Below, piece after piece: positions 1 through 23,191 of a DNA stretch of 23,414 bases; within the stretch, counting starts at the first letter, position 1; each line of letters opens with the position of its first letter. The translations under genes and the position numbers were made by a program. The stretch lies in the IMG/VR virus record IMGVR_UViG_2534682236_000019, one strand, 5' to 3'. Origin of the DNA: a virus (lineage: Duplodnaviria > Heunggongvirae > Uroviricota > Caudoviricetes). The notes beneath the pieces were generated by a model. That model was not told where the DNA came from. It ran no database searches and was given only the letters and a program-made list of their open reading frames with translations.

Positions 1-37
1 CCCCTCACCTGTCAATTCACTCACTGGAAATTTAATT

Positions 38-721: not shown

Positions 722-736
722 TTTAAGGAGTCTGTC

Positions 737-1147
737 ATGAAAACTTTTATCAAAACTTTACTCGTTGCTGTAACTATTCTGTTTTCTGTCTTCGCTACTG
801 CGAAACAAGTAAAACTGCCAAATAACATCAAATACGTTAATACTACAGAAGCGTTTTCCTGTACCGAAATTGACGGTATGAATTGCCAGACAAAGAATCA
901 GTTCAACTATAAAGATAACAGCTATGTTTTCGTGCTTGAACGTGGCGGTGCCTGGTGCTACGACTACACTGTCTCGGTACTTAACCTGAAAACCGGGAAA
1001 GCACAAATGATTGAATACGGGGACAATCAACTGTGCTCAGGTAGCAACAAACCGTTCTTCGAAATCAAAAATGGCGTATCGACGGTAGGAGTCATTGACA
1101 CATCCGGAAAACCTGTCGTTGTGGCTCTGGACAAACTTAAAATCTGA
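737..1147 (+). CDS. Exported hypothetical protein (136 aa) with N-terminal signal peptide
   Basis: Good RBS (AAGGAG, 6 nt spacing). Signal-peptide-like N-terminus MKTFIKTLLVAVTILFSVFATA. Several cysteines consistent with periplasmic disulfides. Confidence 0.65.
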   Translation: MKTFIKTLLVAVTILFSVFATAKQVKLPNNIKYVNTTEAFSCTEIDGMNCQTKNQFNYKDNSYVFVLERGGAWCYDYTVSVLNLKTGKAQMIEYGDNQLCSGSNKPFFEIKNGVSTVGVIDTSGKPVVVALDKLKI

Positions 1148-1290
1148 GGAGTAAACCATGCGTTTCTCTGCACATTATTAATATCAAAGGTAAATACAGC
1201 CTCGGCCATTGTTACCGGAAAGCCGCTTAATGCGTGGCTCGCCAGTGAAAGGCTTCTCAGACAATAAACCTTATTCATTTCACCCGTCAG

Positions 1291-1326
1291 GCCGCGTCTT
1301 CTCCGGGAGATGCGGCTTTTTTCATT
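1291..1326 (+). terminator. Rho-independent terminator after the two exported-protein genes
   Basis: Stem GCCGCGTC / GATGCGGC (8 bp, one G-U) with 10-nt loop, followed by TTTTTTCATTT. Confidence 0.5.
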
Positions 1327-1367
1327 TATTGCACCAGTAAATCTTAACCACCGATAAGGAGCAAATT

Positions 1368-2186
1368 ATGCGACTAGCCAGTCGTTTTGGTTATGCGAAC
1401 CAGATACGCCGTGACCGTCCGCTGACACACGAAGAACTGATGCACTATGTGCCGGGGATTTTCGGGGAAGATAAACACACGTCCCGAAGCCAGAACTATA
1501 CGTACATCCCCACCATCACCGTACTGGAAAGCCTGCAGCGGGAAGGCTTTCAGCCATTCTTCGCCTGCCAGACCCGTGTGCGCGACCCGGGCCGCCGGGG
1601 ATACACAAAACACATGCTGCGTCTGCGGCGGGCCGGAGAGATAAACGGAGAACATGTCCCTGAAATTATTCTGCTCAACTCTCATGACGGTACCTCCAGC
1701 TACCAGATGCTGCCGGGTTACTTCAGGTTCGTCTGCCAGAACGGATGCGTCTGTGGTCAGTCTCTGGGGGAAGTGCGTGTTCCGCACCGGGGAAATGTGG
1801 TGGACAGAGTCATTGAAGGGGCTTACGAGGTGGTGGGGGTTTTTGACCGGATTGAGGAAAAGCGTGATGCCATGCAGTCGCTAATTCTGCCGCCACCGGC
1901 ACGCCAGGCGCTGGCACAGGCGGCACTGACTTACCGTTATGGTGACGAACATCAGCCCGTCACCACCGCCGACATTCTGACGCCACGACGCCGGGAGGAT
2001 TACGGTAAGGACCTGTGGAGTGCTTATCAGACCATCCAGGAGAATATGCTGAAAGGCGGGATTTCCGGTCGCAGTGCAAAAGGAAAACGTATCCACACCC
2101 GTGCCATTCACAGCATCGACACCGATATTAAGCTCAACCGCGCATTGTGGGTGATGGCAGAAACGCTGCTGGAGAGTATGCGCTGA
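1368..2186 (+). CDS. DUF932-family island protein (YafZ/YfjQ-like), 272 aa
   Basis: Strong RBS (AAGGAG). Length and sequence character match the DUF932 proteins of CP4-type cryptic prophages as I recall them. Stop overlaps the next start (TGATG). Confidence 0.75.
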   Translation: MRLASRFGYANQIRRDRPLTHEELMHYVPGIFGEDKHTSRSQNYTYIPTITVLESLQREGFQPFFACQTRVRDPGRRGYTKHMLRLRRAGEINGEHVPEIILLNSHDGTSSYQMLPGYFRFVCQNGCVCGQSLGEVRVPHRGNVVDRVIEGAYEVVGVFDRIEEKRDAMQSLILPPPARQALAQAALTYRYGDEHQPVTTADILTPRRREDYGKDLWSAYQTIQENMLKGGISGRSAKGKRIHTRAIHSIDTDIKLNRALWVMAETLLESMR

Positions 2187-2431
2187 TGAAACATATCCCT
2201 GAAGGCGTGATTCAGGTACCAGAATCCCCCGACGCCCCGGAAGCGCTGCCGGGGTGTCGTTCCATTTCTGATGATGACCTGTGCGCCTGGTGTACCCGTC
2301 TGCTTTACCGTCCCGGAGAAATCAGTCTGTGCAGACTGAGTACAGGCAATGGCATCTGGCCATCCGTCTGTGACCGGAACGGTTACGCATACGGCTGTCC
2401 GGAATTTCAGCCGAATATCATTCATCCCTGA
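2186..2431 (+). CDS. Small Cys-rich hypothetical protein (81 aa), translationally coupled to the upstream gene
   Basis: ATG overlaps the upstream stop (TGATG). Eight Cys in 81 aa suggests metal binding. Internal start of the listed 94-aa ORF chosen because of the coupling. Confidence 0.5.
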   Translation: MKHIPEGVIQVPESPDAPEALPGCRSISDDDLCAWCTRLLYRPGEISLCRLSTGNGIWPSVCDRNGYAYGCPEFQPNIIHP

Positions 2432-2524
2432 TATTACCGGGTCTCACGGTCAGTGATGAACGTGATGTTGCCAGCTCCCGACCTTTACTCCCTCTCATTT
2501 ATTCACATTACAAGGATTTCACTC

Positions 2525-3004
2525 ATGAAAATCGCTTCTCAGAACACAACTGCTCTTTCTTCAGCCACAGCACCAGGGAGTGACCAGTCCCGACTTGTTG
2601 CCACCATAGTCCCTGATGAACAGCGCATCAGCTTCTGGCCGCAGCATTTTGGCCTCATTCCACAGTGGGTGACCCTGGAGCCCCGTGTCTTCGGCTGGAT
2701 GGACCGTCTTTGCGAAGACTACTGCGGTGGTATCTGGAATCTGTACACCCTGAACAACGGCGGGGCATTTATGGTACCCGAACCGGATGACGATGATGAC
2801 GAAACATGGGTACTGTTCAATGCCATGAACGGTAACCGCGCTGAAATGAGCCCGGAAGCCGCCGGCATTGCCGCCTGTCTGATGGCGTACAGCCATCACG
2901 CCTGTCGTACAGAGAATTATGCCATGACAGTTCATTATTACCGGCTGCGGGATTATGCCCTGCAGCATCCGGAATGCAGCGCCATTATGCGCATCATCGA
3001 CTGA
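2525..3004 (+). CDS. Antirestriction protein, ArdB/KlcA family (YfjX/YafX-like)
   Basis: Motifs WPQHFG..PQW.TLEPR.FGWMDRLC.DYCGGIW.LYTL.NGGAFM.PE and HYYRLRDYALQHPE..AIMRIID, characteristic of this family. Internal ATG at 2525 chosen over the upstream ATG. Confidence 0.8.
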   Translation: MKIASQNTTALSSATAPGSDQSRLVATIVPDEQRISFWPQHFGLIPQWVTLEPRVFGWMDRLCEDYCGGIWNLYTLNNGGAFMVPEPDDDDDETWVLFNAMNGNRAEMSPEAAGIAACLMAYSHHACRTENYAMTVHYYRLRDYALQHPECSAIMRIID

Positions 3005-3019
3005 ATGGAGGCAGGGACA

Positions 3020-3496
3020 ATGCAGCAGCTTTCCTTTCTGCCCGGAGAAATGACGCCCGGCGAGCGCAGTCTCATTCTGCGGGCCCTGAAAACCCTGGAC
3101 CGCCATCTTCATGAACCCGGCGTGGCCTTCACCTCCACCCGTGCGGCACGGGAATGGCTGATTCTGAACATGGCAGGACTGGAGCGTGAAGAATTCCGGG
3201 TGCTGTATCTGAACAACCAGAATCAGATGATTGCCGGTGAAACCCTCTTCACCGGCACCATTAACCGCACGGAAGTCCATCCCCGGGAAGTGATTAAACG
3301 CGCCCTGTACCACAATGCCGCTGCCGTGGTACTGGCACACAATCACCCGTCCGGTGAAGTCACACCCAGCAAGGCAGACCGCCTTATCACGGAACGTCTG
3401 GTACAGGCACTGGCCCTGGTGGATATCCGGGTGCCGGACCATCTGATAGTCGGTGGCAGCCAGGTTTTCTCCTTTGCGGAACACGGTCTGCTTTAA
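3020..3496 (+). CDS. RadC-like JAB/MPN-domain protein (YeeS/YkfG/YfjY-like)
   Basis: JAMM metal-binding motif HNHPSGEVTPSKAD. RBS GGAGG 8 nt before ATG 3020. Conserved position after the antirestriction gene in CP4-type islands. Confidence 0.85.
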   Translation: MQQLSFLPGEMTPGERSLILRALKTLDRHLHEPGVAFTSTRAAREWLILNMAGLEREEFRVLYLNNQNQMIAGETLFTGTINRTEVHPREVIKRALYHNAAAVVLAHNHPSGEVTPSKADRLITERLVQALALVDIRVPDHLIVGGSQVFSFAEHGLL

Positions 3497-3582
3497 CCCG
3501 TCACCGTCACAATCACCTTCATATCACTTCAGTTTCTCTTTCTCAGCTGTTTCTTACTTTCACATTCAGGAGGACTATTCTC

Positions 3583-3804
3583 ATGAAAATCATCACCCGT
3601 GGTGAAGCCATGCGTATTCACCGTCAGCATCCTGCATCCCGTCTTTTTCCGTTCTGTACCGGTAAATACCGCTGGCACGGTAGCACGGATACATATACCG
3701 GTCGTGAAGTACAGGATATTCCCGGTGTGCTGGCCGTGTTTGCTGAACGCCGTAAGGACAGTTTTGGCCCGTATGTCCGGCTGATGAGCGTCACCCTGAA
3801 CTGA
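3583..3804 (+). CDS. DUF987-family small protein (YeeT-like), 73 aa
   Basis: Strong RBS (AGGAGG). Size and position immediately upstream of the antitoxin gene match the YeeT/YkfH family. Confidence 0.75.
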   Translation: MKIITRGEAMRIHRQHPASRLFPFCTGKYRWHGSTDTYTGREVQDIPGVLAVFAERRKDSFGPYVRLMSVTLN

Positions 3805-3878
3805 ATCAGGGCATTCAGATGAGCAGCATTATCGCCACCACCGGACCATTCTTAACTGATTTCTGTGAGGATTTTATC

Positions 3879-4256
3879 GTGTCAGACGCACTCTCCGGGA
3901 CAATGCTTCCCGACGACAATCACGACCGCCCCTGGTGGGGGCTGCCCTGCACCGTGACGCCCTGTTTCGGGGCCCGACTGGTGCAGGAGGGTAACCGGTT
4001 GCATTACCTTGCCGACCGCGCCGGTATCAGAGGCAGGTTCAGCGACGCGGATGCGTACCACCTGGACCAGGCCTTTCCGCTGCTGATGAAACAACTGGAA
4101 CTCATGCTCACCGGCGGTGAACTGAATCCCCGCCATCAGCATACCGTCACACTGTATGCGAAAGGGCTGACCTGCGAAGCCGACACCCTCGGCTCCTGTG
4201 GTTACGTTTATCTGGCGGTTTATCCGACACCGGCAGCGCCCGCAACCACCGTATAA
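3879..4256 (+). CDS. cbeA: Type IV antitoxin, CbeA/YeeU family (paralogues YfjZ and YafW cannot be distinguished here)
   Basis: Core LPDDNHDRPWWGLPCTVTPCFGARLVQEGNRLHYLADRAGI...LDQAFPLLMKQLELML matches the family. GTG start at 3879 with GAGG 8 nt upstream fits the family length (about 125 aa) better than the 145-aa ATG ORF from 3819. Confidence 0.8.
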   Translation: MSDALSGTMLPDDNHDRPWWGLPCTVTPCFGARLVQEGNRLHYLADRAGIRGRFSDADAYHLDQAFPLLMKQLELMLTGGELNPRHQHTVTLYAKGLTCEADTLGSCGYVYLAVYPTPAAPATTV

Positions 4257-4302
4257 CACCGGATATCTCTCCTTTATCACCACCTGTTACAGAGAACTTA
4301 AG

Positions 4303-4680
4303 ATGAATACATTACCCGACACTCACGTACGGGAGGCATCGGGCTGCCCGTCTCCCGTCACCATCTGGCAGACACTGCTCACCCGACTGCTGGACCAGCA
4401 CTATGGTCTCACGCTGAATGACACACCGTTCGCTGATGAACGTGTGATTGAGCAGCATATTGAGGCAGGGATTTCACTGTGTGATGCGGTGAACTTTCTC
4501 GTTGAAAAATACGCGCTGGTACGAACCGACCAGCCGGGATTCAGCGCAGGAGCCCCGTCGCAGTTAATCAACAGCATTGATATTCTCCGGGCCCGCCGGG
4601 CAACCGGCCTGATGACCCGCAGCCACTACAGAACGGTAAATGACATTACCCTGGGTAAACGCACGGAGGCAAAACGATGA
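4303..4680 (+). CDS. cbtA: Type IV toxin, CbtA/YeeV family (cytoskeleton-inhibiting toxin)
   Basis: WQ.LL.RLLDQHYGLTLNDTPFADERVIEQHIEAGISLCDAVNFLVEKYALVRTDQPGF matches the family. Internal ATG at 4303 gives about 125 aa. Directly downstream of the antitoxin. Confidence 0.8.
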   Translation: MNTLPDTHVREASGCPSPVTIWQTLLTRLLDQHYGLTLNDTPFADERVIEQHIEAGISLCDAVNFLVEKYALVRTDQPGFSAGAPSQLINSIDILRARRATGLMTRSHYRTVNDITLGKRTEAKR

Positions 4681-5165
4681 AACTGGCCCTGACGCTGGAA
4701 GCTGACAGCGTTAACGTACAGGCACTGAACATGGGGCGAATTGTCGTTGACGTCGATGGTGTTGAGCTTGCCGAACTGATTAACGTGGTCTGCGATAACG
4801 GCTACTCCCTTCGTGTTGTTGATAAATCTGACCGGACCTCAACAGACAGCATCCCCCCCTCAGTTGCCCTGAGCGGCATACGCTGCAGCACCGCACATAT
4901 CACGGAAACGGACAACGCCTGGCTGTACTCGCTGTCACACCAGACTAATGACGACGGGGAATCAGAATGGATTCATTTTACCGGCAGTGGCTATCTGTTA
5001 CGTACCGATGCGTGGTCGTACCCGGTTCTGCGGCTTAAACGCCTGGGGGTGTCAAAAACCTTCCGTCGTCTGGTTGTCACACTTACCCGACGTTATGGCG
5101 TCAGTCTCATTCATCTGGATGCCTGCGCTGAATGCCTGCCGGGTTTACCCACTTTCAACTGGTAA
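4677..5165 (+). CDS. YeeW-like island protein (162 aa)
   Basis: ATGA overlap with the toxin stop. Conserved position after cbtA in CP4-type islands. Confidence 0.7.
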   Translation: MKLALTLEADSVNVQALNMGRIVVDVDGVELAELINVVCDNGYSLRVVDKSDRTSTDSIPPSVALSGIRCSTAHITETDNAWLYSLSHQTNDDGESEWIHFTGSGYLLRTDAWSYPVLRLKRLGVSKTFRRLVVTLTRRYGVSLIHLDACAECLPGLPTFNW

Positions 5166-5176
5166 CCAGGAGCAAC

Positions 5177-5374
5177 ATGAAATCATTAACCACGGAAAGC
5201 GCTCTGGATATTCTGATTGCGTGGCTGCAGGACAATATCGACTGCGAATCGGGAATTATCTTTGACAACGATGAAGATAAAACGGATTCGGCAGCACTGT
5301 TGCCCTGTATTGAACAGGCCAGGGAGGATATCCGTACCCTGCGCCAGCTGCAGCTTCCAGACCAGAACCGGTGA
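5177..5374 (+). CDS. Small acidic hypothetical protein (66 aa, YpjJ-like position)
   Basis: Internal ATG at 5177 preceded by AGGAGC. Followed by a terminator. Confidence 0.5.
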   Translation: MKSLTTESALDILIAWLQDNIDCESGIIFDNDEDKTDSAALLPCIEQAREDIRTLRQLQLPDQNR

Positions 5375-5403
5375 GTCTCATTCACCACTCTTCATTCCAC
5401 TGA

Positions 5404-5437
5404 CGCCAGCCTGAGCAGGGCTGGCGTTTTCATTTAT
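5404..5437 (+). terminator. Rho-independent terminator closing the island operon
   Basis: Stem CGCCAGCC / GGCTGGCG (8 bp), 6-nt loop, then TTTT. Confidence 0.65.
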
Positions 5438-5456
5438 TTGTAAAAAGGAAATGTAA

Positions 5457-6876
5457 TGAACGCATCCCAACATTATGAAATGAGCCGCTCGGGGATTAAG
5501 TAGATGAGTGTGGAACCCCGCAGATTTCCGGCATCATCGTGCCCAACGGGATGCGTTTCGCTCCCAACAGACTGGAGGATCCACACCATGAAATATATCC
5601 CTGTCGGTGTTGATATTGCAAAACATCTTATGCAGGTGCATTTCGTTGATGAACATACCGGAGAGATTATCGATAAGCAGGTTAAGCGTGAGAAATTCCT
5701 TGAATATTTCAGCAACCGTGAACCCTGCCTTATCGGCATGGAGGCCTGTGGGGGTTCTCATCACTGGGCGCGTGAGCTTCAGAAACTGGGACATAAGGTC
5801 AGATTACTCAAAGGCCGGTTCGTCAAAGCATTCGTGATGGGAAATAAAAACGATGTGATGGACGCCCGAGCCATCTGGCTGGCGGTTCAGCAGCCGGTAA
5901 AATCCGTCGCCGTTAAAAGCGAGGAGCAACAGGCTACGCTGGGGTTACACCGAATGCGCCAGCAACTGGTGAAGTTCAGGACAGCACAAATAAACGCGCT
6001 TCACGGTCTCTTGCTGGAATTTGGTGAAACGACGCACAAGGGGCGTGCTGCTTTGGCGAAGGAGGTGCCGGAAGCCCTGGAGCGTCTGAAGGAGCGGCTA
6101 CCGCTCTACCTGATAAACATGCTGGATGAACAATATCAGCGAATTACTGAACTTGATGAACATCTTGACCACATTGAGAAGCAGCTGCAGGCGGTAGCCA
6201 GACAGAATGAAACCTGTCAGCGGTTACTGAACATCCCAGGCGTGGGGCCGTTAATCGCCACCGCTGCCGTTGCCACGATGGGAGACGCCTCCGCCTTTAA
6301 GTCGGGACGGGAATTCGCCGCGTTTATCGGTCTGGTGCCCAGACAGACAGGCTCAGGAGGAAAAATCCGCCTGCTGGGAATAAGCAAACGTGGTGATAAA
6401 TATCTGCGAACCCTGTTTATTCATGGTGCAAGGGCGGCAGCATTACTGACCAAAGAACCTGGTCCATGGATAACCGAACTGAAAAAGCGTCGTCCGGCCA
6501 GCGTGGCAATCGTCGCAATGGCAAACAAGCTGGCGCGAACGGTGTGGGCAATAGCCGCTCACGGACGTAAATACGACAAAAATCATGTCAGTATCAGGCC
6601 TGATTAATCGCTGATACCGATAAACATAAACTCTTTACAAAAGGGTGAATGCAGAAAGGTTGCTCTGGCAGCCAGCGTGATGACAAAGACAGGTAAGACC
6701 GTGACTCACTAAACCTGGATAATCGATTGGGCCTAAAGCCCGCTGAGGAAATGAGGCGTGAGTCGGCGAATTACATAGGGGCTCGCAGCTTCCGGGCTGC
6801 AATAAAGCCGGATATAAAGCTGCAACCTACCGTCGATGTCAGAACAATGGATGCCTTTGCAAACGGGATGCGTTCA
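5457..6876 (+). mobile_element. IS110-family insertion sequence (about 1.42 kb; IS1111-like size and layout), boundaries approximate
   Basis: A single DEDD-type transposase ORF flanked by a perfect 12-13 bp inverted repeat (TGAACGCATCCC at 5457-5468; GGGATGCGTTCA at 6865-6876). Non-coding arms of about 130 bp (5') and 270 bp (3'). Inserted between the island terminator and the next gene. Confidence 0.6.
5588..6607 (+). CDS. IS110-family transposase (DEDD RuvC-like N-terminal domain plus C-terminal transposase domain), 339 aa
   Basis: N-terminal IPVGVDIAKH...GMEACGG...MDARAI and C-terminal GVGPLIATA...FAAFIGLVPRQTGSGGK...ISKRGDKYLR are hallmark IS110/IS116/IS902-type motifs. ATG 5588 preceded by GGAGG. 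Confidence 0.85.
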   Translation: MKYIPVGVDIAKHLMQVHFVDEHTGEIIDKQVKREKFLEYFSNREPCLIGMEACGGSHHWARELQKLGHKVRLLKGRFVKAFVMGNKNDVMDARAIWLAVQQPVKSVAVKSEEQQATLGLHRMRQQLVKFRTAQINALHGLLLEFGETTHKGRAALAKEVPEALERLKERLPLYLINMLDEQYQRITELDEHLDHIEKQLQAVARQNETCQRLLNIPGVGPLIATAAVATMGDASAFKSGREFAAFIGLVPRQTGSGGKIRLLGISKRGDKYLRTLFIHGARAAALLTKEPGPWITELKKRRPASVAIVAMANKLARTVWAIAAHGRKYDKNHVSIRPD

Positions 6877-6889
6877 TATAATATCGATT

Positions 6890-7738
6890 ATGTCTGATAT
6901 CACAGCCTCCCGTCCGAAAGTGGTCAACGGGCATACGGACGTTATCTGCTCCACCTCAGTCAGCCACATTCTGGCTGTACGAAAGAGTACACTGCTGCAA
7001 ATCGACACACTTATCCGGCAACTGGCTGAAATCTCAGCAATGACGGAAAGCATTGGCGGCAAAACCGCCCGGGACTGGGCCATGAAACAGGATTTTCGCT
7101 GCGGCTGCTGGCTGATGGATAAAACGGAAACCGCAATGAAAGCCATCACCCGCAATCTTGACCGCGAAATCTGGCGTGACCTGATGCAACGTTCCGGGAT
7201 GCTGTCATTAATGGATGTGCAGGCCCGTGATACATGGTACAGCTCACTGGAGTACGATAATTTTCCGGAAATCAGTGAAGCGAACATTCTGAGCACATTT
7301 GAACAACTGCACCAGAACAAAGATGAAGTGTTTGAGCGAGGGGTGATCAACGTCTTCAGAGGGCTGAACTGGAATTACAAAACCAATTGCCCCTGTAAAT
7401 TTGGCAGTAAAATTATCGTCAACAATCTGGTGAGGTGGGACCTGTGGGGATTGCATCTTATCACCGGGCAACAGGCAGATCGACTTGCCGACCTGGAAAG
7501 AATGCTGCACCTGTTCAGCGGCAAACCGATCCCCGACAGCCGGGAAAATATTATTATTCGGCTGGATGATCACATCCGCTCCGTTCAGGGCAAAGCCTGC
7601 TATGAAGATGAGATGTTCAGCATCAGATACTTTAAGAAGGGCTCCGCGCATATCACGTTCAGAAAACCAGAACTGGTTGATCGGCTAAATGACATCATTG
7701 CGAAGTATTATCCAGAAATAATCCCATACAATATCTAA
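6890..7738 (+). CDS. Conserved island hypothetical protein (282 aa; possibly DUF4942-like), integrase-adjacent
   Basis: Long ORF with plausible codon usage. Start chosen at ATG 6890, just beyond the IS right inverted repeat; the upstream part of the listed ORF would be IS-derived. Family name is from memory only. Confidence 0.55.
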   Translation: MSDITASRPKVVNGHTDVICSTSVSHILAVRKSTLLQIDTLIRQLAEISAMTESIGGKTARDWAMKQDFRCGCWLMDKTETAMKAITRNLDREIWRDLMQRSGMLSLMDVQARDTWYSSLEYDNFPEISEANILSTFEQLHQNKDEVFERGVINVFRGLNWNYKTNCPCKFGSKIIVNNLVRWDLWGLHLITGQQADRLADLERMLHLFSGKPIPDSRENIIIRLDDHIRSVQGKACYEDEMFSIRYFKKGSAHITFRKPELVDRLNDIIAKYYPEIIPYNI

Positions 7739-7830
7739 TAAAACTAATCATTTCTTGTTGTGACTGATTTAGTTGAACCATACTGCATGGTCGAGTAGAC
7801 AGGGTATCTCAGACCATGCATGTATTTTTA

Positions 7831-9150
7831 TCATCTGTTCCCAAATTTTATATGAATAACATTATCCGGAGCATTCTGCTGCACAGTAATGACGTTATTC
7901 ATAATAAAATTCCCCCATTCTATAAATAATTTTTTTAATTTTTCAGCTTGTTGTCCGACTTGATATGTTCGTATTAAACGGTCTTTGGGTACATGATTTA
8001 ACAGTAACTCTATTAGGCGCTCTGGAGCATCAAGGTATTCAGCGCATCCAGTCGCAACACTTCTACGCAGATCATGAGGAGAAAATGGAGTAAGTTCGGC
8101 TAGATACTTAGAGCGAACCCTTTCTAACGCGCGAGTCAGAGCGTCATTTGTGATGGGAAAGCCAGGTTTGCTAGTAGAACCAAAAACATATGCACCTTCA
8201 GTGAATTCACGTTGTGTTTTTATTAAAGAAAGCATATACGGATGTAAAGTAACAATATGGCTTTTCCCATTTTTAGTGGCTGGTATGGTCCAACGCTCTC
8301 CATTAATTTGATCCCAGCGCATTTGTGCCGCTTCAGAGCGGCGCACTCCTGTGAAAATAATCAAACGGAGTGCATTTGCGACAGAATGAGATAATACCAC
8401 ACTAGAGGAAATTCCATAGCCACCAGATGCAATGGAGCCTCCTCCAACAGTAGCATCATCCAAAGCCTTCCATAGCATCCGGAGTTCATTCTCAGGAAGC
8501 CATCGCTCGCGAGGTTTATTCATCGATGCACCAAACATTGCTGGTTTGAGCAGTCGTGCTGGGTTATGCTCAAGCATACCCTGTAAGTTGGCATGATCAA
8601 GAGTCATATTTAGAATAATTAATCCTTTACGAACTGCTTCAGAACTGGTTTTTCTTACATTACTGAGATGTTCAAAAATAACGCTTTTGGTAAGTTCGTC
8701 AATGCAAAGGTTTCCTAATGCTTTTTCAAGGTGGCGGTGATAAGTCCCTTCATAATCTGCAAGGGTTCTGGTGCTAATTGGTTTACTTGTCTTTCTGAAT
8801 TCTATCCAATCTTTCCATAATTCAGAGTAAATAATCATTTGTTCATTTTTTTGTTTTTCATTTTTTCTAATATGACGAGGATCTATACCTTTTCTTACTA
8901 ATTCAATTGCATCCGCATGAGCTTTACGAGCTTGAGCTAATCCCATGGCAGGGTAACTACCTAGTGTTAATTTAGCTGGCTTTTGAGCTATTCGATAACG
9001 ATAAATCCAGCTTTTATTGTCGCTACCATAACGAACGCGTATAAAGAGTCCTCCCCCAGCTTTAGATTTTACAGCAAATAAGATTTCTTTTTCTTCTTTA
9101 GTAACGGTCAATGAAGCCAATTGTCTGTCTTGTGTAATAGTAAAAGTCAT
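7831..9150 (-). CDS. P4-type tyrosine integrase (IntA/IntF-like), 439 aa
   Basis: N-terminal arm-binding-like region and C-terminal catalytic region with R...HDLRRS...Y residues (FSPHDLRRSVATG, LLNHV, RTYQ). ATG at 9150 (M13 of the listed ORF) has an AAGG RBS. AT-rich relative to neighbours. Confidence 0.85.
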   Translation of the reverse strand: MTFTITQDRQLASLTVTKEEKEILFAVKSKAGGGLFIRVRYGSDNKSWIYRYRIAQKPAKLTLGSYPAMGLAQARKAHADAIELVRKGIDPRHIRKNEKQKNEQMIIYSELWKDWIEFRKTSKPISTRTLADYEGTYHRHLEKALGNLCIDELTKSVIFEHLSNVRKTSSEAVRKGLIILNMTLDHANLQGMLEHNPARLLKPAMFGASMNKPRERWLPENELRMLWKALDDATVGGGSIASGGYGISSSVVLSHSVANALRLIIFTGVRRSEAAQMRWDQINGERWTIPATKNGKSHIVTLHPYMLSLIKTQREFTEGAYVFGSTSKPGFPITNDALTRALERVRSKYLAELTPFSPHDLRRSVATGCAEYLDAPERLIELLLNHVPKDRLIRTYQVGQQAEKLKKLFIEWGNFIMNNVITVQQNAPDNVIHIKFGNR

Positions 9151-9315
9151 ATCTTCAGCCTTTTGGGTACACAGTGGGGTACACATTTAACATGATATCA
9201 TCAGAAACAAGGCGAAACATCTTGATACTGCATTTGTGTGTATTTTATTGATTTTTATACAATTTTTATTGTATACGGAAACGGCTGTGAACATCTTGAA
9301 TCACTGGTCTCGCTA

Positions 9316-18774: not shown

Positions 18775-19770
18775 GTGACCGTGAGAGCACTACTGACTCC
18801 TGAAATTGCCCCGCGTATGGGGATCGTATTGTTCAGGCCAGGTTCAGAGCTGATGCCCCTGTTTATGCAGGGGCGTGTCCTGCTGGAGCCTGAGCCGGAA
18901 CGTTATTCATCTTTCGCCAGTGGTGCCGTTCCGGCGGCATCACAACCGCTGGCGGATGATCCTGCCGTTCGGGCCGTGTTCCGCAATGAGGCAGTGATCC
19001 GTCGTGCTGGTGGCGTGGAATGTCTTGAAAGCTGGTTACTTCGTGAAAAAGGCTGCCAGTGGCCTCATTCCGACTGGCACAGCGAGAACATGACCACAAT
19101 GCGACACGCTCCGGGCGCAATCCGTCTGTGCTGGCACTGCGATAACCAGCTGCGCGATCAGTTCACGGAACGGCTGGAATCAATGGCAACGGATAACTGT
19201 GCCCGCTGGGTGTTGTCTGTTGTGCGTCGGGATCTCGGTTTTGATGACAGTCACGTTGTGACAATGCCGGAACTGTGCTGGTGGCTGATTCGTAATGACC
19301 TGGCGGATGCCTTACCGGAAAGTGCAGCCCGTAAGGCACTTAGATTACCGAAGCCTGTTGTGCCGTCTGTTACCCGGGAAAGTGACCTTGTGCCTTCGGT
19401 TCCTGCCACCAGCATCATCCAGGATAAAGCGAAAAAGGTGCTGGCGCTGAAAGTGGATCCTGAGTCGCCGGAGTCTTTTATGTTACGCCCAAAACGTCGC
19501 CGCTGGGTTAATGAAAAGTACACGCGCTGGGTTAAGACACAGCCGTGTGCATGTTGTGGAAAGCCTGCTGATGATCCCCACCACCTGATAGGTCACGGTC
19601 AGGGAGGAATGGGTACAAAAGCGCATGACCTCTTTGTGTTGCCTTTGTGCAGAAAGCATCACGACGAGCTGCATGCGGATACCGTGGCATTTGAAGAGAA
19701 GTATGGCTCCCAGCTGGAGCTGATATTTCGTTTTATCGATCGTGCGCTGGCAATAGGCGTACTGGCGTAA
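18775..19770 (+). CDS. DUF968-family phage protein with C-terminal HNH-like Cys/His motif (YdfU-like), about 330 aa
   Basis: C-terminal CACCGKPADDPHHLIGHGQGGMGTKAHDLFVLPLCRKHHDELH. Sits directly upstream of the Q-like gene, as ydfU does in the E. coli Qin prophage. GTG start; GTG 18781 is an alternative. Confidence 0.65.
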   Translation: MTVRALLTPEIAPRMGIVLFRPGSELMPLFMQGRVLLEPEPERYSSFASGAVPAASQPLADDPAVRAVFRNEAVIRRAGGVECLESWLLREKGCQWPHSDWHSENMTTMRHAPGAIRLCWHCDNQLRDQFTERLESMATDNCARWVLSVVRRDLGFDDSHVVTMPELCWWLIRNDLADALPESAARKALRLPKPVVPSVTRESDLVPSVPATSIIQDKAKKVLALKVDPESPESFMLRPKRRRWVNEKYTRWVKTQPCACCGKPADDPHHLIGHGQGGMGTKAHDLFVLPLCRKHHDELHADTVAFEEKYGSQLELIFRFIDRALAIGVLA

Positions 19771-19783
19771 GTGGAGAACGAGC

Positions 19784-20536
19784 ATGAACTTTGAAGCCTT
19801 ACCGAAATATTACTCCCCAAAATCTCCAAAATTGAGCGATGACGCACCGGCGACAGGCTCTGGTGGTTTAACAATTACGGATGTAATGGCTGCGCAGGGG
19901 ATGGTGCAGTCGAAAGCACCGCTTGGGTTTGCCTTATTCCTGGCAAAAGTTGGTGTTCAGGATCCTCAGTTTGCGATTGAAGGTCTGCTCAATTACGCGA
20001 TGGCACTGGATAACCCGACATTGAACAAATTGAGTGAAGAAACCCGGCTACAGATCATTCCTTACCTTGTGAATTTTGCCTTTGCTGATTATTCCAGGTC
20101 TGCGGCAAGTAAGGCTCGCTGTGAGCATTGTGCTGGTACTGGATTTCATGATGTATTGCGCGAGGTGGTGAAACACTCCAGAAGCGGGGAATCTGTTATC
20201 AAGGAAGAGTGGGTGAAGGAACTGTGTCAGCATTGTCATGGTAAGGGAGAAGTCAGCACAGCGTGCAGAGGGTGTAAGGGTAAAGGTATTGTCCTGGATG
20301 AAAAAAGAACCAGGCTTCATGGCACGCCTGTTTATAAGGTTTGTGGGCGTTGCAATGGAAACCGGTTTAGCCGTTTACCAACCACACTGGCGCGGCTTCA
20401 TGTCCAGAAGCTGGTACCAGACCTGACGGATTATCAGTGGTACAAAGGATATGCAGATGTCATTGATAAACTGGTTACAAAGTGCTGGCAGGAAGAAGCG
20501 TATGCTGAGACACAATTGAGGAAAGTGACGAGATGA
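19784..20536 (+). CDS. Late-gene antiterminator Q-like protein (QuuQ-like size, 250 aa) with four CxxCxGxG zinc-finger repeats
   Basis: CEHCAGTG, CQHCHGKG, CRGCKGKG, CGRCNGN repeats. Located immediately upstream of a promoter and terminator and the lysis cassette. Good RBS. Confidence 0.7.
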   Translation: MNFEALPKYYSPKSPKLSDDAPATGSGGLTITDVMAAQGMVQSKAPLGFALFLAKVGVQDPQFAIEGLLNYAMALDNPTLNKLSEETRLQIIPYLVNFAFADYSRSAASKARCEHCAGTGFHDVLREVVKHSRSGESVIKEEWVKELCQHCHGKGEVSTACRGCKGKGIVLDEKRTRLHGTPVYKVCGRCNGNRFSRLPTTLARLHVQKLVPDLTDYQWYKGYADVIDKLVTKCWQEEAYAETQLRKVTR

Positions 20537-20567
20537 ATGATTTTCGACGAAAATGGCGACATGATGC

Positions 20568-20596
20568 TTGCATTTTTCAAAAAAAATGGATAATAT
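20568..20596 (+). promoter_or_regulatory. Candidate late promoter (PR'-like): TTGCAT-N17-TAATAT
   Basis: Near-consensus sigma-70 hexamers with 17-bp spacer, 30 bp after the Q stop and about 50 bp before a strong terminator. Confidence 0.5.
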
Positions 20597-20641
20597 TTTC
20601 TCAATGATAGGCATTGTGTGTCCGGCTTTAATAAAAAGTAG

Positions 20642-20670
20642 AAAACCCGCTGATGTGCGGGTTTTTTTTC
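20642..20670 (+). terminator. Rho-independent terminator (tR'-like, expected to be overridden by Q)
   Basis: AAAACCCGC TGATGT GCGGG TTTTTTTT. Confidence 0.8.
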
Positions 20671-20691
20671 GGAATTTTAGATGTGTGGCAT

Positions 20692-20721
20692 TGAAATGGT
20701 ATTCGGCGAGTAGGTAGAATT
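20692..20721 (+). promoter_or_regulatory. Candidate autonomous promoter of the cargo gene: TTGAAA-N18-TAGAAT
   Basis: Strong sigma-70-like hexamers located between the tR'-like terminator and the cargo ORF start. Confidence 0.45.
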
Positions 20722-20747
20722 TAAACTTTCGTCTCGTCTGGATCGAC

Positions 20748-21290
20748 ATGATGTTTCAAGCCTTCCAAACAGCAGTATTTAAAAATGTTGCAGAGTATTT
20801 AAAAGGGCGCTTCCCTCATAAGTCGTTAGGGCTCGTATATGCCGACGAGCTGGTACTAAAAGATATGGAGTTCCTCAAGGCTAACAATAAACTGCGGTGG
20901 GATCCCGGACTAAAGTCGCGAGTGTTTATGGATATGATGGAAGAACACCCGATAAAACTAGTTGTTTATTATCGTGGGGAGCCTATTGGATTTGCATTTG
21001 GGTGTTACTGTAAGCCGAAAAATGCGGTGCATATTTGCTGGATGGAAAAACGTAATGATGCACATGAAGACCTAGACCATCAGATGCTTGGTATCGTTTT
21101 GGATTGCTTCTCTGCATATGCACGATTTCTGAACCTTCAGGGTGAATCTATTGATTCGATAGCTTTAGTTAGTCCAGTTGATGGGGCAATAAGATACTAT
21201 ACTGAAAGTGGTTTTGAGTACATTGCTGATTACGAACGAGGTGGTTGCGCAATGGTGCTTAGGAGCGTTTTACCTAACCAATCAGTGTGA
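20748..21290 (+). CDS. AT-rich cargo (moron) protein of unknown function, 180 aa; tentatively GNAT-like acyltransferase fold
   Basis: Clean ORF with lower GC and rare codons (CTA, ATA, AGG) relative to the phage backbone. C-terminal IRYYTESGFEYIADYERGG resembles the terminal strand-helix of GNAT-fold enzymes, but no canonical acetyl-CoA P-loop is visible. Confidence 0.7.
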   Translation: MMFQAFQTAVFKNVAEYLKGRFPHKSLGLVYADELVLKDMEFLKANNKLRWDPGLKSRVFMDMMEEHPIKLVVYYRGEPIGFAFGCYCKPKNAVHICWMEKRNDAHEDLDHQMLGIVLDCFSAYARFLNLQGESIDSIALVSPVDGAIRYYTESGFEYIADYERGGCAMVLRSVLPNQSV

Positions 21291-21481
21291 GTTAGATTCT
21301 TAATTTCTCCAGAATCATTACAAAAGTATTGAAAACCTCTTTTAGTTGATGCAATCTGGATCCACACAAAGCACACACAAAATGTACTACGCTTTACTTT
21401 ATACATCTTCAGGTAACAAACTTTGTTGCCTTTATGCTTCAAAGAAGCAACTACAGCTTAGTGCTGAACAAGGGGATTTTT

Positions 21482-21667
21482 ATGAAACATCATGAGCAGA
21501 TAGAGATTGAGGCAGCTAAAGTCGTCGCCGAACTCTTTGCTGGCAATGCATCTCCAATGGAAACCTTTGGTATTACATGGAGTCAAACTCAGATGTTAGA
21601 GCGTAAGAATCCTGGTGTAGTGATCAAACTAGTACCGGATGACGGTAAAAAACTTGCGTATTGCTGA
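21482..21667 (+). CDS. Small hypothetical protein (61 aa) downstream of the cargo gene
   Basis: Internal ATG with AAGGGGA RBS. Followed 50 bp later by a strong terminator. AT-rich. Confidence 0.5.
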   Translation: MKHHEQIEIEAAKVVAELFAGNASPMETFGITWSQTQMLERKNPGVVIKLVPDDGKKLAYC

Positions 21668-21715
21668 TAATTTTTAAAGATTTTTTCAGCTAGAGAATCG
21701 ATTATTTTACTATAA

Positions 21716-21744
21716 ATCGCGAAGGAGCCCCACATATTGTGGGG
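21716..21744 (+). terminator. Rho-independent terminator closing the cargo module
   Basis: AGCCCCACA TAT TGTGGGGCT followed by TTTTTGTTT. Confidence 0.8.
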
Positions 21745-21924
21745 CTTTTTGTTTCATCTTAGTTAGCCGTTATTCACATTCACTACTTTGCTACTTATCC
21801 ACTGTAAAAATAAATTGTGAATTATTTTGTGGCTTATTGTTAGTGTTCTATCAATTTTGTGTGTGATATTCCATTGGCGTGGTTATTATCTGTGCATCGC
21901 ACTTAAATGTATAAAGCTCACTAG

Positions 21925-22239
21925 TTGAGACAATCCTACCACCAGTTGGTGGTATCTCATGATTCACTGAATTGCAAATCTTCTGAATTGCTGGATGAGT
22001 TTAAATCTCACCGGCGCTATTTCTCCGTATCAGTCTCCGTGCCTTATACCGATGTCAGGACGCATAAGCCCGTTCAGTTCTACCCGGGTAAACATCCGTG
22101 CGAGAAACCGGCGGATATGCTCAGGCAAATAATCAATGCCAGTAGTCGACCTGGTGATCTGGTTGCTGATTTCTTTATGGGATTCGGTTCCACAATAAAA
22201 GCAGCAATGGCGCTGGGGCGTCGGGCGTTAGGTGTTTAA
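21925..22239 (+). pseudogene. C-terminal fragment of an N6-adenine/N4-cytosine DNA methyltransferase (remnant)
   Basis: HPCEKPADMLRQIINASSRPGDLVADFFMGFGSTIKAAMALGRRALGV matches the conserved HPTxKP...DPFxGSGTT...GR region of D12/N4-N6 methylases. No DPPY/NPPY motif and no N-terminal domain upstream; ORF starts at TTG just after an in-frame stop and ends early. Confidence 0.65.
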
Positions 22240-22306
22240 CTTGAGTCAGAGCGGTTTAATCAGACGGTGAAAGAGGTAAGTGAACTGGTGGGGAAATAAT
22301 TCTGGT

Positions 22307-22331
22307 GGCCACGTTGCGTGGCCTTTTTATT
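22307..22331 (+). terminator. Hairpin plus T-run upstream of the holin gene
   Basis: GGCCACG TTG CGTGGCC followed by TTTTTATTT. Lies inside the N-terminal extension of the listed holin ORF, which argues for the internal start. Confidence 0.5.
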
Positions 22332-22375
22332 TCCAACACAGCACCCGCAAATATCGCGAGGTGAGAGATGACGAA

Positions 22376-22711
22376 ATGCCTCATAACCCAAATACCTGGC
22401 CGGACTGGCTGGAGTTGTTTCAGAGCTGGTGGCGTGGAGACACACCGCTGGGTGCAGTGATTATGTCGATCGTTATGGCTGGTTTGCGCATCGCCTATTT
22501 TGGCGGTGGTGGTGGCTGGAAGCGAAAAACGCTCGAGATTTTGCTATGTGGCGCTCTGACGCTGACCTTTGCATCCGCTCTTGAGTATGTCGGATGGCCT
22601 AAATCACTTTCTGTTGCCATTGGTGGTGGGGTGGGGCTGATCGGTGTCGATGCTATTCGTGGGGCTGCAATGCGAGTAATCGGTAACAAATTTGGTGGCT
22701 CTAAGGAGTAA
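22376..22711 (+). CDS. S: Class I holin, lambda S-like (111 aa from internal ATG)
   Basis: Three hydrophobic segments and C-terminal ...GGGVGLIGVDAIRGAAMRVIGNKFGG similar in pattern to lambda S (...[22 protein letters not shown]). Immediately upstream of the R endolysin. Confidence 0.7.
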   Translation: MPHNPNTWPDWLELFQSWWRGDTPLGAVIMSIVMAGLRIAYFGGGGGWKRKTLEILLCGALTLTFASALEYVGWPKSLSVAIGGGVGLIGVDAIRGAAMRVIGNKFGGSKE

Positions 22712-22714
22712 TTT

Positions 22715-23191
22715 ATGCAGGTACTAAATTCCCAGCGTAAAGCTTTCCTTGATATGGTGGCTTGGTCAGAAGGAACGGATAACGGACGACAACCGACACG
22801 TAACCACGGTTATGACGTTATTGTCGGTGGTGAACTCTTCACTGATTACTCCGATCACCCTCGCAAACTTGTCACGCTAAACCCCAAACTCAAATCAACA
22901 GCCGCCGGACGTTACCAGCTTCTTTCACGTTGGTGGGATGCTTACCGTAAACAGCTTGGTTTGAAAGACTTCTCCCCCAAAAGCCAGGACGCTGTGGCAT
23001 TGCAGCAGATTAAAGAACGTGGCGCTTTACCGATGATTGATCGTGGTGATATTCGTCAGGCTATCGACCGTTGCAGCAATATCTGGGCTTCGTTGCCGGG
23101 CGCTGGTTACGGTCAGTTCGAGCATAAGGCTGACAGCCTGATTGCAAAATTCAAAGAAGCAGGCGGAACGGTCAGAGAGATTGAGGTATGA
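22715..23191 (+). CDS. R: Endolysin, lambda R-type lytic transglycosylase, 158 aa
   Basis: [66 protein letters not shown]... is near-identical to lambda R as I recall it, including the catalytic Glu in AWSEGTD. RBS AAGGAG. Confidence 0.95.

What the first reader, a model, noticed from the sequence alone, without database searches (positions are those of the whole stretch)
20537..21760. AT-rich two-gene cargo module with its own promoter and terminator, between the Q antiterminator and the holin
The slot between Q and the holin is the classic lambdoid cargo site (Shiga toxin genes sit there in Stx phages). Here it holds a compositionally foreign module: a 180-aa protein (20748-21290) and a 61-aa protein (21482-21667), with a TTGAAA-N18-TAGAAT promoter in front and a strong terminator behind. 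The large protein has a GNAT-like C-terminal signature but no recognisable acetyl-CoA P-loop, and I cannot assign either protein to a named family. Plausible roles are a lysogenic-conversion or host-fitness factor, an anti-defence or superinfection-exclusion function, or a toxin with a small partner (GNAT-fold toxins of the AtaT/TacT type normally have the antitoxin upstream, so the gene order here would be atypical). This is my best candidate for an undescribed function in the window.
Basis: partly seen in the sequence, partly recalled or inferred. Interest (0 to 1): 0.7.

Follow-up and report, generated by a model that had tools for sequence, protein, structure and literature searches.

The report
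Orphan GNAT-fold two-gene phage moron
Downstream of the prophage's Q antiterminator, where Shiga-toxin phages carry their toxin genes, sits a self-contained mobile cassette encoding an unclassified acetyltransferase-like enzyme and a tiny obligate partner; it moves between accessory slots of many temperate phages and is a good but untested candidate for a new phage-versus-phage conflict system.

Summary

Comparison with a sister prophage sets the true cassette at 20668-21929. It replaced a small ORF and the 5' two-thirds of a DNA methyltransferase gene. 20537-20667 is phage backbone.

- **Small protein:** a three-helix domain with a disordered tail and no structural match.
- **Linkage:** in 19 distinct loci, down to 27% identity, the small gene always lies 82-226 bp downstream. 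A terminator followed it in all 16 loci scanned.
- **Selection:** both genes are under strong purifying selection (dN/dS about 0.05).
- **Location:** the cassette occupies Q-holin slots of several lambdoid backbones, a lysis-terminase slot, a tail-gene slot, a prophage edge, and the P2 gpA-gpQ defence hotspot.

It is a textbook moron and a sequence-orphan family. My best guess is a prophage-expressed enzyme plus restraining partner acting in exclusion or defence. That is inference. Classic AtaT/TacT membership fails.

The parts
19784..20536 (+). Q antitermination protein (context, phage backbone)
   Evidence: PF03589 E 8e-53. 96-97% identical in the sister prophage L048, which lacks the cassette.
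20568..20596 (+). Putative Q-dependent late promoter region (TTGCAT-N17-TAATAT), backbone
   Evidence: Read directly from the sequence. Shared with L048. Below the scan's threshold. Assigned only by position, by analogy with lambda pR'.
20642..20669 (+). tR'-like intrinsic terminator (AAAACCCGC-TGATGT-GCGGGTTTT plus T-run); the left recombination junction lies in its T-run
   Evidence: Hairpin reported. T8 run read. Homology with L048 ends at 20667. Sub-threshold Rfam leader/sRNA-like hits only.
20668..21929 (+). Cargo-specific segment (moron cassette plus 180 bp AT-rich tail) absent from the sister prophage
   Evidence: blastn window against L048: homology 19001-20667 and 21930-22998 only. 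Present intact at >=99.6% identity in 98 of 5426 complete E. coli genomes.
20691..20720 (+). Promoter-like site TTGAAA-N18-TAGAAT in front of the large gene
   Evidence: 10/12. Hexamers conserved with a variable spacer in L021 and L023. Promoter-like -10 elements lie 30-60 nt upstream of the gene in other loci.
20748..21290 (+). Large gene: sequence-orphan GNAT-fold protein (180 aa; probable start 20751)
21329..21355 (+). Conserved intergenic box TTGAAA-N15-TGCAAT (extended -10 TGaTGCAAT): probable promoter for the small gene
   Evidence: TTG and ATGCAA are invariant in 8 intergenic regions that are otherwise 52% identical. Coordinates.
21411..21431 (+). Conserved hairpin in the intergenic region or leader of the small gene (weak terminator here, strong terminators in other loci)
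   Evidence: Three of 8 pairs show compensatory changes among 4 sequences.
21482..21667 (+). Small gene: 61-aa partner protein (three helices plus a disordered C-terminal tail)
   Evidence: SD AAGGGG upstream. phrog_11292, unknown function. AF2 pLDDT 77. No Foldseek or Pfam hit. Homologous small gene downstream in all 19 loci. dN/dS 0.04.
21722..21750 (+). Strong intrinsic terminator closing the cassette
   Evidence: A non-homologous terminator lies 10-90 nt after the small gene in 16 of 16 loci.
21925..22239 (+). 3' remnant of an N6_N4 DNA methyltransferase gene truncated by the cassette
   Evidence: PF01555, profile positions 156-209 only. Pseudogene in RefSeq. Intact 350-aa gene in L048. 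Homology resumes at 21930.
22376..22711 (+). Lambda-family holin (context, backbone)
   Evidence: PF05106 E 6e-27. RefSeq start 22376.

Best explanation
Anatomy (shown). This is a moron: a self-contained, horizontally mobile transcription unit (promoter, 180-aa gene, structured intergenic region with its own promoter-like box, 61-aa gene, terminator). It was dropped just behind the first late terminator of a lambdoid prophage. There it is also read through by Q-modified RNA polymerase during lytic growth. The large protein has a GNAT fold with candidate catalytic residues by analogy with GNAT enzymes (E100 at the end of strand 4; Y150/Y151 on helix 4 in an A-x-x-Y-Y-x-x-x-G-F motif). It has a degenerate cofactor loop (R102-N-D-A105-H-E in place of Q/R-x-x-G-x-G/A). 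The small protein is an obligate, co-diverging partner.

Mechanism (inferred). The enzyme is an acyl-CoA-dependent transferase acting on a protein or small-molecule target, not on tRNA. The small partner, made in excess from its own promoter, binds and restrains or directs the enzyme. The pair, expressed from the prophage, serves in inter-phage conflict: superinfection exclusion or abortive-type defence with toxin-antidote logic.

I put the anatomy at about 0.9. The confidence given below is for the mechanism and role.
For: Moron anatomy:
- Promoter and terminator.
- AT-rich relative to every enterobacterial backbone.
- Presence/absence polymorphism with exact junctions.

Mobility between slots:
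- Behind Q in backbones with different Q families (window; L003 and L025 with PF06530 Q; L021-24).
- Methyltransferase-holin in Photorhabdus.
- Lysis-terminase in Pragia.
- Between tail genes in Erwinia, judged from ORF sizes and order only.
- Prophage edge next to the integrase in Citrobacter.
- P2-like gpA/Ogr-portal locus.

GNAT fold. Conserved E100, Y151 and related residues.

Obligate pairing:
- 19 of 19 loci carry the small gene.
- Identities of the two proteins co-vary (r = 0.94, n = 16).
- The large gene was never seen without the small one, whereas small-only remnants exist in Xenorhabdus.
- All 98 E. coli copies are full-length at >=99.6% identity, and both genes are annotated in every record listed.
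- Purifying selection on both genes.

Conflict role:
- The P2 gpA-gpQ locus is an experimentally supported defence hotspot (PMC9122126, PMC13586616).
- There the cassette neighbours putAbiC and AHH-nuclease cargo. In L025 it neighbours a HicB-like antitoxin.

Separate promoter-like box before the small gene. The RnlA/RnlB precedent for a downstream antitoxin with its own promoter is from my memory, not checked here.
Against: - There is no phenotype and no expression data.
- No hit to any PADLOC model, even at E<=1.
- Hotspot location is only guilt by association. PMC13586616 reports that only 15-32% of unknown P2 proteins score as antiviral.
- The cofactor loop lacks both glycines, so acyl-CoA binding is not assured.
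- The 82-226 bp intergenic region with terminator-like hairpins is unusual for toxin-antitoxin pairs.
- The small partner has no recognisable DNA-binding or antitoxin fold.
Confidence: 0.4

Rival explanations
1. Lysogenic-conversion or host-fitness enzyme. The GNAT-fold protein acylates a small molecule (toxic metabolite, antibiotic, microcin-like compound) or a host protein to the lysogen's benefit. The small protein is a regulator or specificity subunit. Neither is toxic.
For: Most GNATs are benign modifying or detoxifying enzymes. The structural neighbours are spread evenly over such enzymes: RimI, Naa50, ArsN, streptothricin and phosphinothricin acetyltransferases. The protein is acidic. 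An own promoter and terminator fit expression from the prophage.
Against: It does not explain the obligate small partner (19 of 19 loci), the absence of large-only loci, or the separate regulation of the partner. The family is very small and seen almost only in prophages or prophage-like islands: 25 hits among 1.84 billion representatives. That is unlike useful resistance enzymes, which spread to plasmids; only 1 plasmid hit was found.
Confidence: 0.2
2. Counter-defence factor. The enzyme is made mainly during lytic growth by Q read-through and inactivates a host or rival immune protein by acylation, as the GNAT anti-CRISPR AcrVA5 does (from memory).
For: Position inside the late operon behind Q in several lambdoid backbones. 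GNAT fold. Phage hotspots hold both defence and counter-defence genes (PMC13586616 abstract).
Against: Counter-defence genes usually act early. Here the cassette keeps its own promoter and terminator in all contexts, including prophage edges and a tail-gene slot. The pair is found only in temperate elements, with a single record among 50,697 phage genomes.
Confidence: 0.12
3. Member of the classic type II GNAT toxin-antitoxin family (AtaT/TacT/KacT/ItaT). The toxin acetylates aminoacyl-tRNA and the antitoxin neutralises it, with mainly an addiction role.
Against: - No GNAT Pfam hit: 2 of 29 members at E 0.11.
- The partner has no DUF1778/RHH hit and lies downstream after 82-226 bp. The family pairs GNAT toxins with DUF1778 antitoxins (PMC9177977 abstract), and type II antitoxin genes are usually upstream (PMC11869752 abstract).
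- The enzyme is acidic, median pI 5.7.
Confidence: 0.06
4. Peptide-modification pair. The 61-aa protein is the substrate (a conserved leader-like helical domain plus a variable Lys/Cys-containing C-terminal tail) that the GNAT-fold enzyme acylates.
For: Conserved N-terminal 45 residues and a variable, disordered tail that often ends K-x-x-A-C-C/G. GNAT maturases of ribosomal peptides exist (from memory).
Against: No protease, exporter or immunity gene travels with the pair, since the neighbours differ in every context. The tail Cys and Lys are not universal. The two genes appear to be separately transcribed.
Confidence: 0.07

Closest known systems
Phage morons (Juhala et al. 2000; Cumby et al. 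2012, as cited in bioRxiv 10.1101/2024.10.15.618418), including stx in the Q-S slot of Stx phages
   Same: An autonomous promoter-gene(s)-terminator unit, compositionally distinct, present or absent between otherwise homologous phages. It sits behind Q and the first late terminator, so it is also read through during induction.
   Different: The cargo is not a known virulence, Bor/Lom-type or Stx-type gene. It is a two-gene unit of unknown function that also occupies P2-type, tail, lysis-terminase and prophage-edge slots.
GNAT (Gcn5-related N-acetyltransferase) superfamily, e.g. RimI (5isv), Naa50 (2ob0), NatD (4u9w)
   Same: Same fold and strand/helix order. A helix-4 motif A-x-x-Y-Y-x-x-x-G-F resembling motif B. 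A conserved Glu at the end of strand 4.
Type II GNAT/DUF1778 toxin-antitoxin systems (AtaRT, TacAT, KacAT, ItaRT)
   Same: A GNAT-fold enzyme plus a small partner on mobile DNA, with possible toxin-antidote logic.
   Different: The partner is unrelated, downstream and separately promoted. The enzyme is acidic and not recognised by GNAT HMMs.
Cargo of the P2 gpA-gpQ defence hotspot (old, tin and others; Rousset et al. 2022, PMC9122126)
   Same: Distant homologues of the cassette sit in that locus in Vibrio and other P2-like prophages, next to AbiC-like cargo.
   Different: Not detected by PADLOC, and no anti-phage phenotype has been shown.

Membership tests
Phage moron | Own promoter upstream of the cargo | tested here: met
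   TTGAAA-N18-TAGAAT at 20691-20720. Hexamers conserved with a variable spacer in L021 and L023, and promoter-like -10 elements in other loci. This rests on sequence only; activity was not measured.
Phage moron | Own factor-independent terminator downstream | tested here: met
   21722-21750. 16 of 16 diverse loci have a strong, non-homologous terminator 10-90 nt after the small gene.
Phage moron | Composition differs from the surrounding phage genome | tested here: met
   GC 0.41 against 0.52/0.49 here. The same direction holds in L021, L023, L007, L026 and L028.
Phage moron | Present or absent between otherwise homologous phages | tested here: met
   L048 shares 96% identical flanks but has a 67-aa ORF plus an intact methyltransferase instead. 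Junctions at 20667 and 21930.
Phage moron | Expressed from the repressed prophage | not testable with these tools
   Needs RNA-seq or 5'-RACE of lysogens.
GNAT superfamily | GNAT fold (b1-a1-a2-b2-b3-b4-a3-b5-a4-b6) | tested here: met
GNAT superfamily | Motif A pyrophosphate loop Q/R-x-x-G-x-G/A between strand 4 and helix 3 | tested here: not met
   The loop reads R102-N-D-A105-H-E. Only the Arg and a small residue at the first Gly position are kept, and distant members diverge further. The placement is inferred from the model's secondary structure.
GNAT superfamily | Match to a GNAT-clan sequence profile | tested here: not met
   No Pfam hit for the window protein. 2 of 29 family members hit Acetyltransf_1 at E 0.11. 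The PDB profile search found nothing.
GNAT superfamily | Binds acyl-CoA and transfers the acyl group | not testable with these tools
   Needs biochemistry.
Type II GNAT/DUF1778 toxin-antitoxin (AtaT/TacT type) | RHH/DUF1778 antitoxin | tested here: not met
   No Pfam hit for any of 31 small-protein homologues at a meaningful E-value. The model is three helices, not ribbon-helix-helix. The family definition is from the PMC9177977 abstract.
Type II GNAT/DUF1778 toxin-antitoxin (AtaT/TacT type) | Antitoxin gene upstream, tightly coupled to the toxin gene | tested here: not met
   The small gene is downstream with an 82-226 bp spacer in all loci.
Type II GNAT/DUF1778 toxin-antitoxin (AtaT/TacT type) | Toxin acetylates aminoacyl-tRNA and arrests growth | not testable with these tools
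   Indirect only: an acidic enzyme (median pI 5.7) argues against tRNA binding.
Known anti-phage defence systems | Match to a model of a known or candidate system | tested here: not met
   PADLOC-DB v2: no family at E<=1 for either protein.
Known anti-phage defence systems | Located in a recognised defence hotspot | tested here: met
   Distant homologues lie between gpA/Ogr and the portal gene of P2-like prophages. That locus is defined as a defence hotspot in PMC9122126 and PMC13586616. This was not shown for the E. coli Q-holin slot itself.
Known anti-phage defence systems | Protects against phage infection | not testable with these tools
   Needs plaque assays.

The most novel reading that the evidence does not exclude
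The pair founds an undescribed family of temperate-phage conflict systems. It would comprise a sequence-orphan GNAT-fold acyltransferase with a non-canonical cofactor loop, kept in check or directed by a new three-helix 60-aa partner that is separately transcribed behind a structured leader. It would confer superinfection exclusion or abortive defence on lysogens, including E. coli O157:H7, from the same late-operon slot that carries stx in Stx phages.
Probability: 0.35. Interest if true: 0.7.

Novelty: new variant of a known kind. Interest (0 to 1): 0.52.

Why it matters
If the pair is a defence or toxin-antidote system, it adds a new enzymatic effector class to the phage-borne immune repertoire: a GNAT fold that is not tRNA-directed, with a new kind of partner. 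It would also show that the Q-holin slot of lambdoid prophages in Shiga-toxigenic E. coli lineages carries conflict genes as well as toxins.

The cassette is compact (about 1 kb), intact in all 98 E. coli genomes that carry it, and comes with its own control signals. Cloning and testing it is straightforward. Even if it proves to be an ordinary modifying enzyme, it defines a GNAT subfamily that current profile libraries do not detect.

Tried and rejected
Sequence-family searches found nothing useful:
- Pfam, NCBIfam and PADLOC on both proteins, and Pfam on all family members.
- PHROGs gave only unknown-function families.
- PDB sequence searches with the single protein and with the profile.

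Structure:
- Foldseek of the small-protein model against the PDB gave no match.

RNA: Rfam on 20400-22400 gave only sub-threshold terminator-like hits at the backbone terminator.

Literature: searches for the accessions, the PHROG ids, and GNAT plus prophage defence found no description. None of the new P4/P2 systems in PMC13586616 resembles it.

Ideas dropped:
- The small protein as an Xre-like HTH regulator: it is acidic, with no HMM or fold support.
- The intergenic box as a sigma-54 promoter: the spacing does not fit and the GG is absent in E. coli (read directly).
- Chance ORFs: excluded by dN/dS about 0.05 and by conservation down to 27% identity.
- I first assumed the whole window equals the O157:H7 record. 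This is wrong for 1-9315.
Full report
**1. Observation**

The two ORFs are real and sit at the stated coordinates. RefSeq annotates them as hypothetical proteins WP_021519681.1 and WP_000680348.1 in E. coli O157:H7. GC drops to 0.34-0.43 over 20450-22100, against 0.48-0.58 in the flanks.

The consensus scan finds TTGAAA-N18-TAGAAT at 20691-20720 and a 13-pair terminator at 21722-21750. The promoter match by itself is not more than chance gives (2 found against 4.9 expected). What supports it is a footprint. In cassettes 76-82% identical (L021, L023), both hexamers are kept while the spacer changes.

The upstream gene is Q (PF03589). The downstream genes are a lambda-type holin and an endolysin.

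**2. True boundaries**

A sister prophage (E. coli GPEC1240, L048) has the same Q and holin at 96-97% identity. Between them it carries a 67-aa ORF and an intact 350-aa N6_N4 DNA methyltransferase. Homology to the window stops at 20667 and resumes at 21930.

- The left junction lies in the T-run of a strong terminator (20642-20669). This follows a promoter-like TTGCAT-N17-TAATAT (20568-20596).
- By position these correspond to the lambda late promoter and first terminator (pR'/tR'). That assignment is an inference, and they are backbone, not cargo.
- The right junction truncates the methyltransferase gene, leaving the pseudogene at 21925-22239.
- The cargo segment is therefore 20668-21929.
- Between different phage backbones, the shared cassette DNA is about 20713-21673.

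The window's prophage part (9316 onward) is 99.95% identical to an O157:H7 record. The first 9.3 kb matches a different island found in E. coli O22:H8 strain 154.

**3. The large protein**

It has no Pfam, NCBIfam, PADLOC or PDB sequence hit. PHROGs places it in phrog_11949, of unknown function.

The family is tiny. There are 28 clusters among 5.8 billion proteins. A full HMMER pass over 1.84 billion representatives gave 25 hits. One of 50,697 phage records and one of 72,556 plasmids carry it.

The secondary-structure order is the GNAT order with an extra N-terminal helix. Several residues are conserved:
- E100 at the end of strand 4.
- Y74, Y75, G81 and G85.

The strand 4-helix 3 loop reads R102-N-D-A105-H-E-D-L. 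It keeps the Arg and a small residue but lacks both glycines of Q/R-x-x-G-x-G/A. This is a GNAT fold with a degenerate cofactor loop, so activity is plausible but unproven.

The family is mildly acidic, with median pI 5.7.

**4. The small protein**

PHROGs places it in phrog_11292, of unknown function. Pfam gives nothing for any of 31 homologues.

AF2 (pLDDT 77) predicts helices at 2-18, 25-28 and 33-47, followed by a disordered tail at 48-61. Foldseek finds no PDB match.

The conserved core is L-F-A-x-G-x-x-P-M-E-x-F-G-x-x-W-x-x-x-x-x-L-E-x-x-x-P. The tail varies and often, but not always, ends K-x-x-A-C-C/G. Median pI is 5.1.

**5. The pair is one unit**

Nineteen distinct loci were examined. 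They come from Escherichia, Erwinia, Citrobacter, Proteus, Photorhabdus, Limnobaculum, Pragia, Vibrio, Psychrosphaera and metagenomes. The large protein's identity runs from 100% down to 27%.

- In every locus a homologous 58-65-aa gene lies 82-226 bp downstream.
- The identities of the two proteins co-vary (r = 0.94, n = 16).
- Both genes have dN/dS of 0.04-0.05 at dS about 1.
- All 98 E. coli copies, out of 5426 complete genomes, are single-copy and full-length at >=99.6% identity, and both genes are annotated in every record listed.
- I never saw the large gene alone. Truncated small-only copies exist in Xenorhabdus behind Q.

**6. Transcription signals**

All 16 loci checked have a strong, non-homologous terminator 10-90 nt after the small gene. 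Most have a promoter-like site 30-60 nt before the large gene.

The spacer between the genes is not neutral. Eight spacers that are only 52% identical share an invariant TTG...ATGCAA block. This is TTGAAA-N15-TGCAAT with an extended -10, at window 21329-21355.

A hairpin follows 50-100 nt later. Here it is a weak terminator (21411-21431). In Erwinia, Photorhabdus, Limnobaculum, Pragia and others it is a strong one. Three of its 8 pairs show compensatory changes among four sequences, which is a thin sample.

The simplest reading is that the small gene has its own promoter and a structured leader.

**7. Mobility and neighbourhood**

The cassette occupies several kinds of accessory slot:
- Behind Q in backbones with different Q proteins: PF03589 here, a 36%-identical Q in L021-24, and PF06530 Q in Proteus L003 and in L025.
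- Between methyltransferase and holin in Photorhabdus.
- Between the lysis genes and a pyocin-S/terminase block in Pragia.
- Between ORFs whose sizes and order match lambda tail genes K and I/J in Erwinia. I did not run a family scan on those ORFs.
- At a prophage edge beside the integrase in Citrobacter.
- Between gpA/Ogr and the portal gene in P2-like prophages, for the distant homologues.

That last locus is the P2 defence hotspot that holds old and tin (PMC9122126; PMC13586616). In Vibrio it also holds, variably, putAbiC, an AHH nuclease and DUF4760 next to the cassette. In L025 the next gene is HicB-like.

**8. Interpretation**

Shown:
- It is a moron in the strict sense.
- It carries a sequence-orphan GNAT-fold protein and an obligate partner.
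- It is mobile among accessory slots of temperate phages of Gammaproteobacteria.

Inferred:
- Because it sits behind tR' in the late operon, Q-modified polymerase should read through its terminators. It would then be expressed both from its own promoter in lysogens and strongly on induction, as stx is.
- The strict dependence of the large gene on the small one, the separate promoter-like box for the partner, and the company it keeps favour enzyme-plus-restraining-partner logic used in phage-phage conflict.
- I put this at about 0.4.

Rivals are a benign modifying enzyme (0.2), counter-defence (0.12), a peptide-modification pair (0.07) and a classic GNAT/DUF1778 toxin-antitoxin (0.06). The last fails every testable membership feature: no GNAT HMM hit, no DUF1778 partner, reversed order with a long spacer, and an acidic enzyme (family features from the PMC9177977 and PMC11869752 abstracts).

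**9. Novelty and score**

Nothing in the searched literature describes either protein. As a moron it is a known kind of thing. As a GNAT-fold enzyme with this partner and layout it is a new variant.

It is a well-defined candidate that is easy to test, not a surprise in itself. Interest is 0.52. It would rise to about 0.7 if a defence or toxin-antidote phenotype were shown.

Noticed in passing
window 21291-21481 (box 21329-21355; hairpin 21411-21431; second hairpin about 21437-21449): The spacer between the two genes carries an invariant TTG...ATGCAA promoter-like box. It is followed by one or two conserved hairpins, which are strong terminators in several other loci. This suggests a separately promoted small gene with a structured, possibly attenuating, leader, or a small RNA.
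   Followed up: partly
window 20568-20669: Backbone element right after Q: a promoter-like TTGCAT-N17-TAATAT and a strong hairpin plus T8 terminator. By position it resembles lambda pR'/6S RNA/tR'. The cassette's left junction lies in the terminator's T-run. Rfam gives only sub-threshold leader/sRNA-like hits.
   Followed up: partly
window 21925-22239: 3' third of an N6_N4 DNA methyltransferase gene, truncated by the cassette. The sister prophage L048 has the intact 350-aa gene plus a 67-aa ORF in the same slot.
   Followed up: yes
window 1-9315: The left 9.3 kb does not match the O157:H7 record that shares the prophage. It matches E. coli O22:H8 strain 154 and a few others, and the features under that match include a second integrase, IS110, DUF4942 and DUF932 genes. 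The same prophage is therefore flanked by different DNA in different lineages.
   Followed up: partly
window 22280-22711: The holin ORF can start at GTG 22280 (143 aa) or ATG 22376 (111 aa, RefSeq). A terminator-like hairpin at 22307-22323 lies inside the longer version, which favours the shorter gene.
   Followed up: no
window 21751-21929: About 180 bp of very AT-rich (about 34% GC) non-coding cargo DNA after the terminator. It holds a minus-strand promoter-like site (21913-21885) and a hydrophobic 33-codon TTG ORF (21827-21928). Its meaning is unknown.
   Followed up: no
L049/L050 4001-4237 (Xenorhabdus hominickii) and proteins P0096-P0101: Small-protein homologues with replaced or truncated C-termini sit behind Q and before an intact methyltransferase and holin. 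No detectable large-protein gene is present; an unrelated 104-aa ORF lies upstream. They look like decayed or re-partnered copies.
   Followed up: partly
L041-L043 about 2900-6200 (Vibrio P2-like prophages); L025 3254-3661: The slot next to the cassette carries variable conflict-type cargo: an AHH nuclease with a downstream gene, putAbiC, DUF4760, and a HicB-like antitoxin.
   Followed up: no
L037 9444-11037 (Pragia fontium prophage): A Pyocin_S-domain protein and a 100-aa downstream gene lie between the lysis cassette and the terminase, directly after the GNAT-like pair.
   Followed up: no
plasmid CP044351.1 39590-40100: The only plasmid hit to the large protein is split into three pieces at 67% identity on a conjugative E. 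coli plasmid. It may be a frameshifted or error-rich copy.
   Followed up: no
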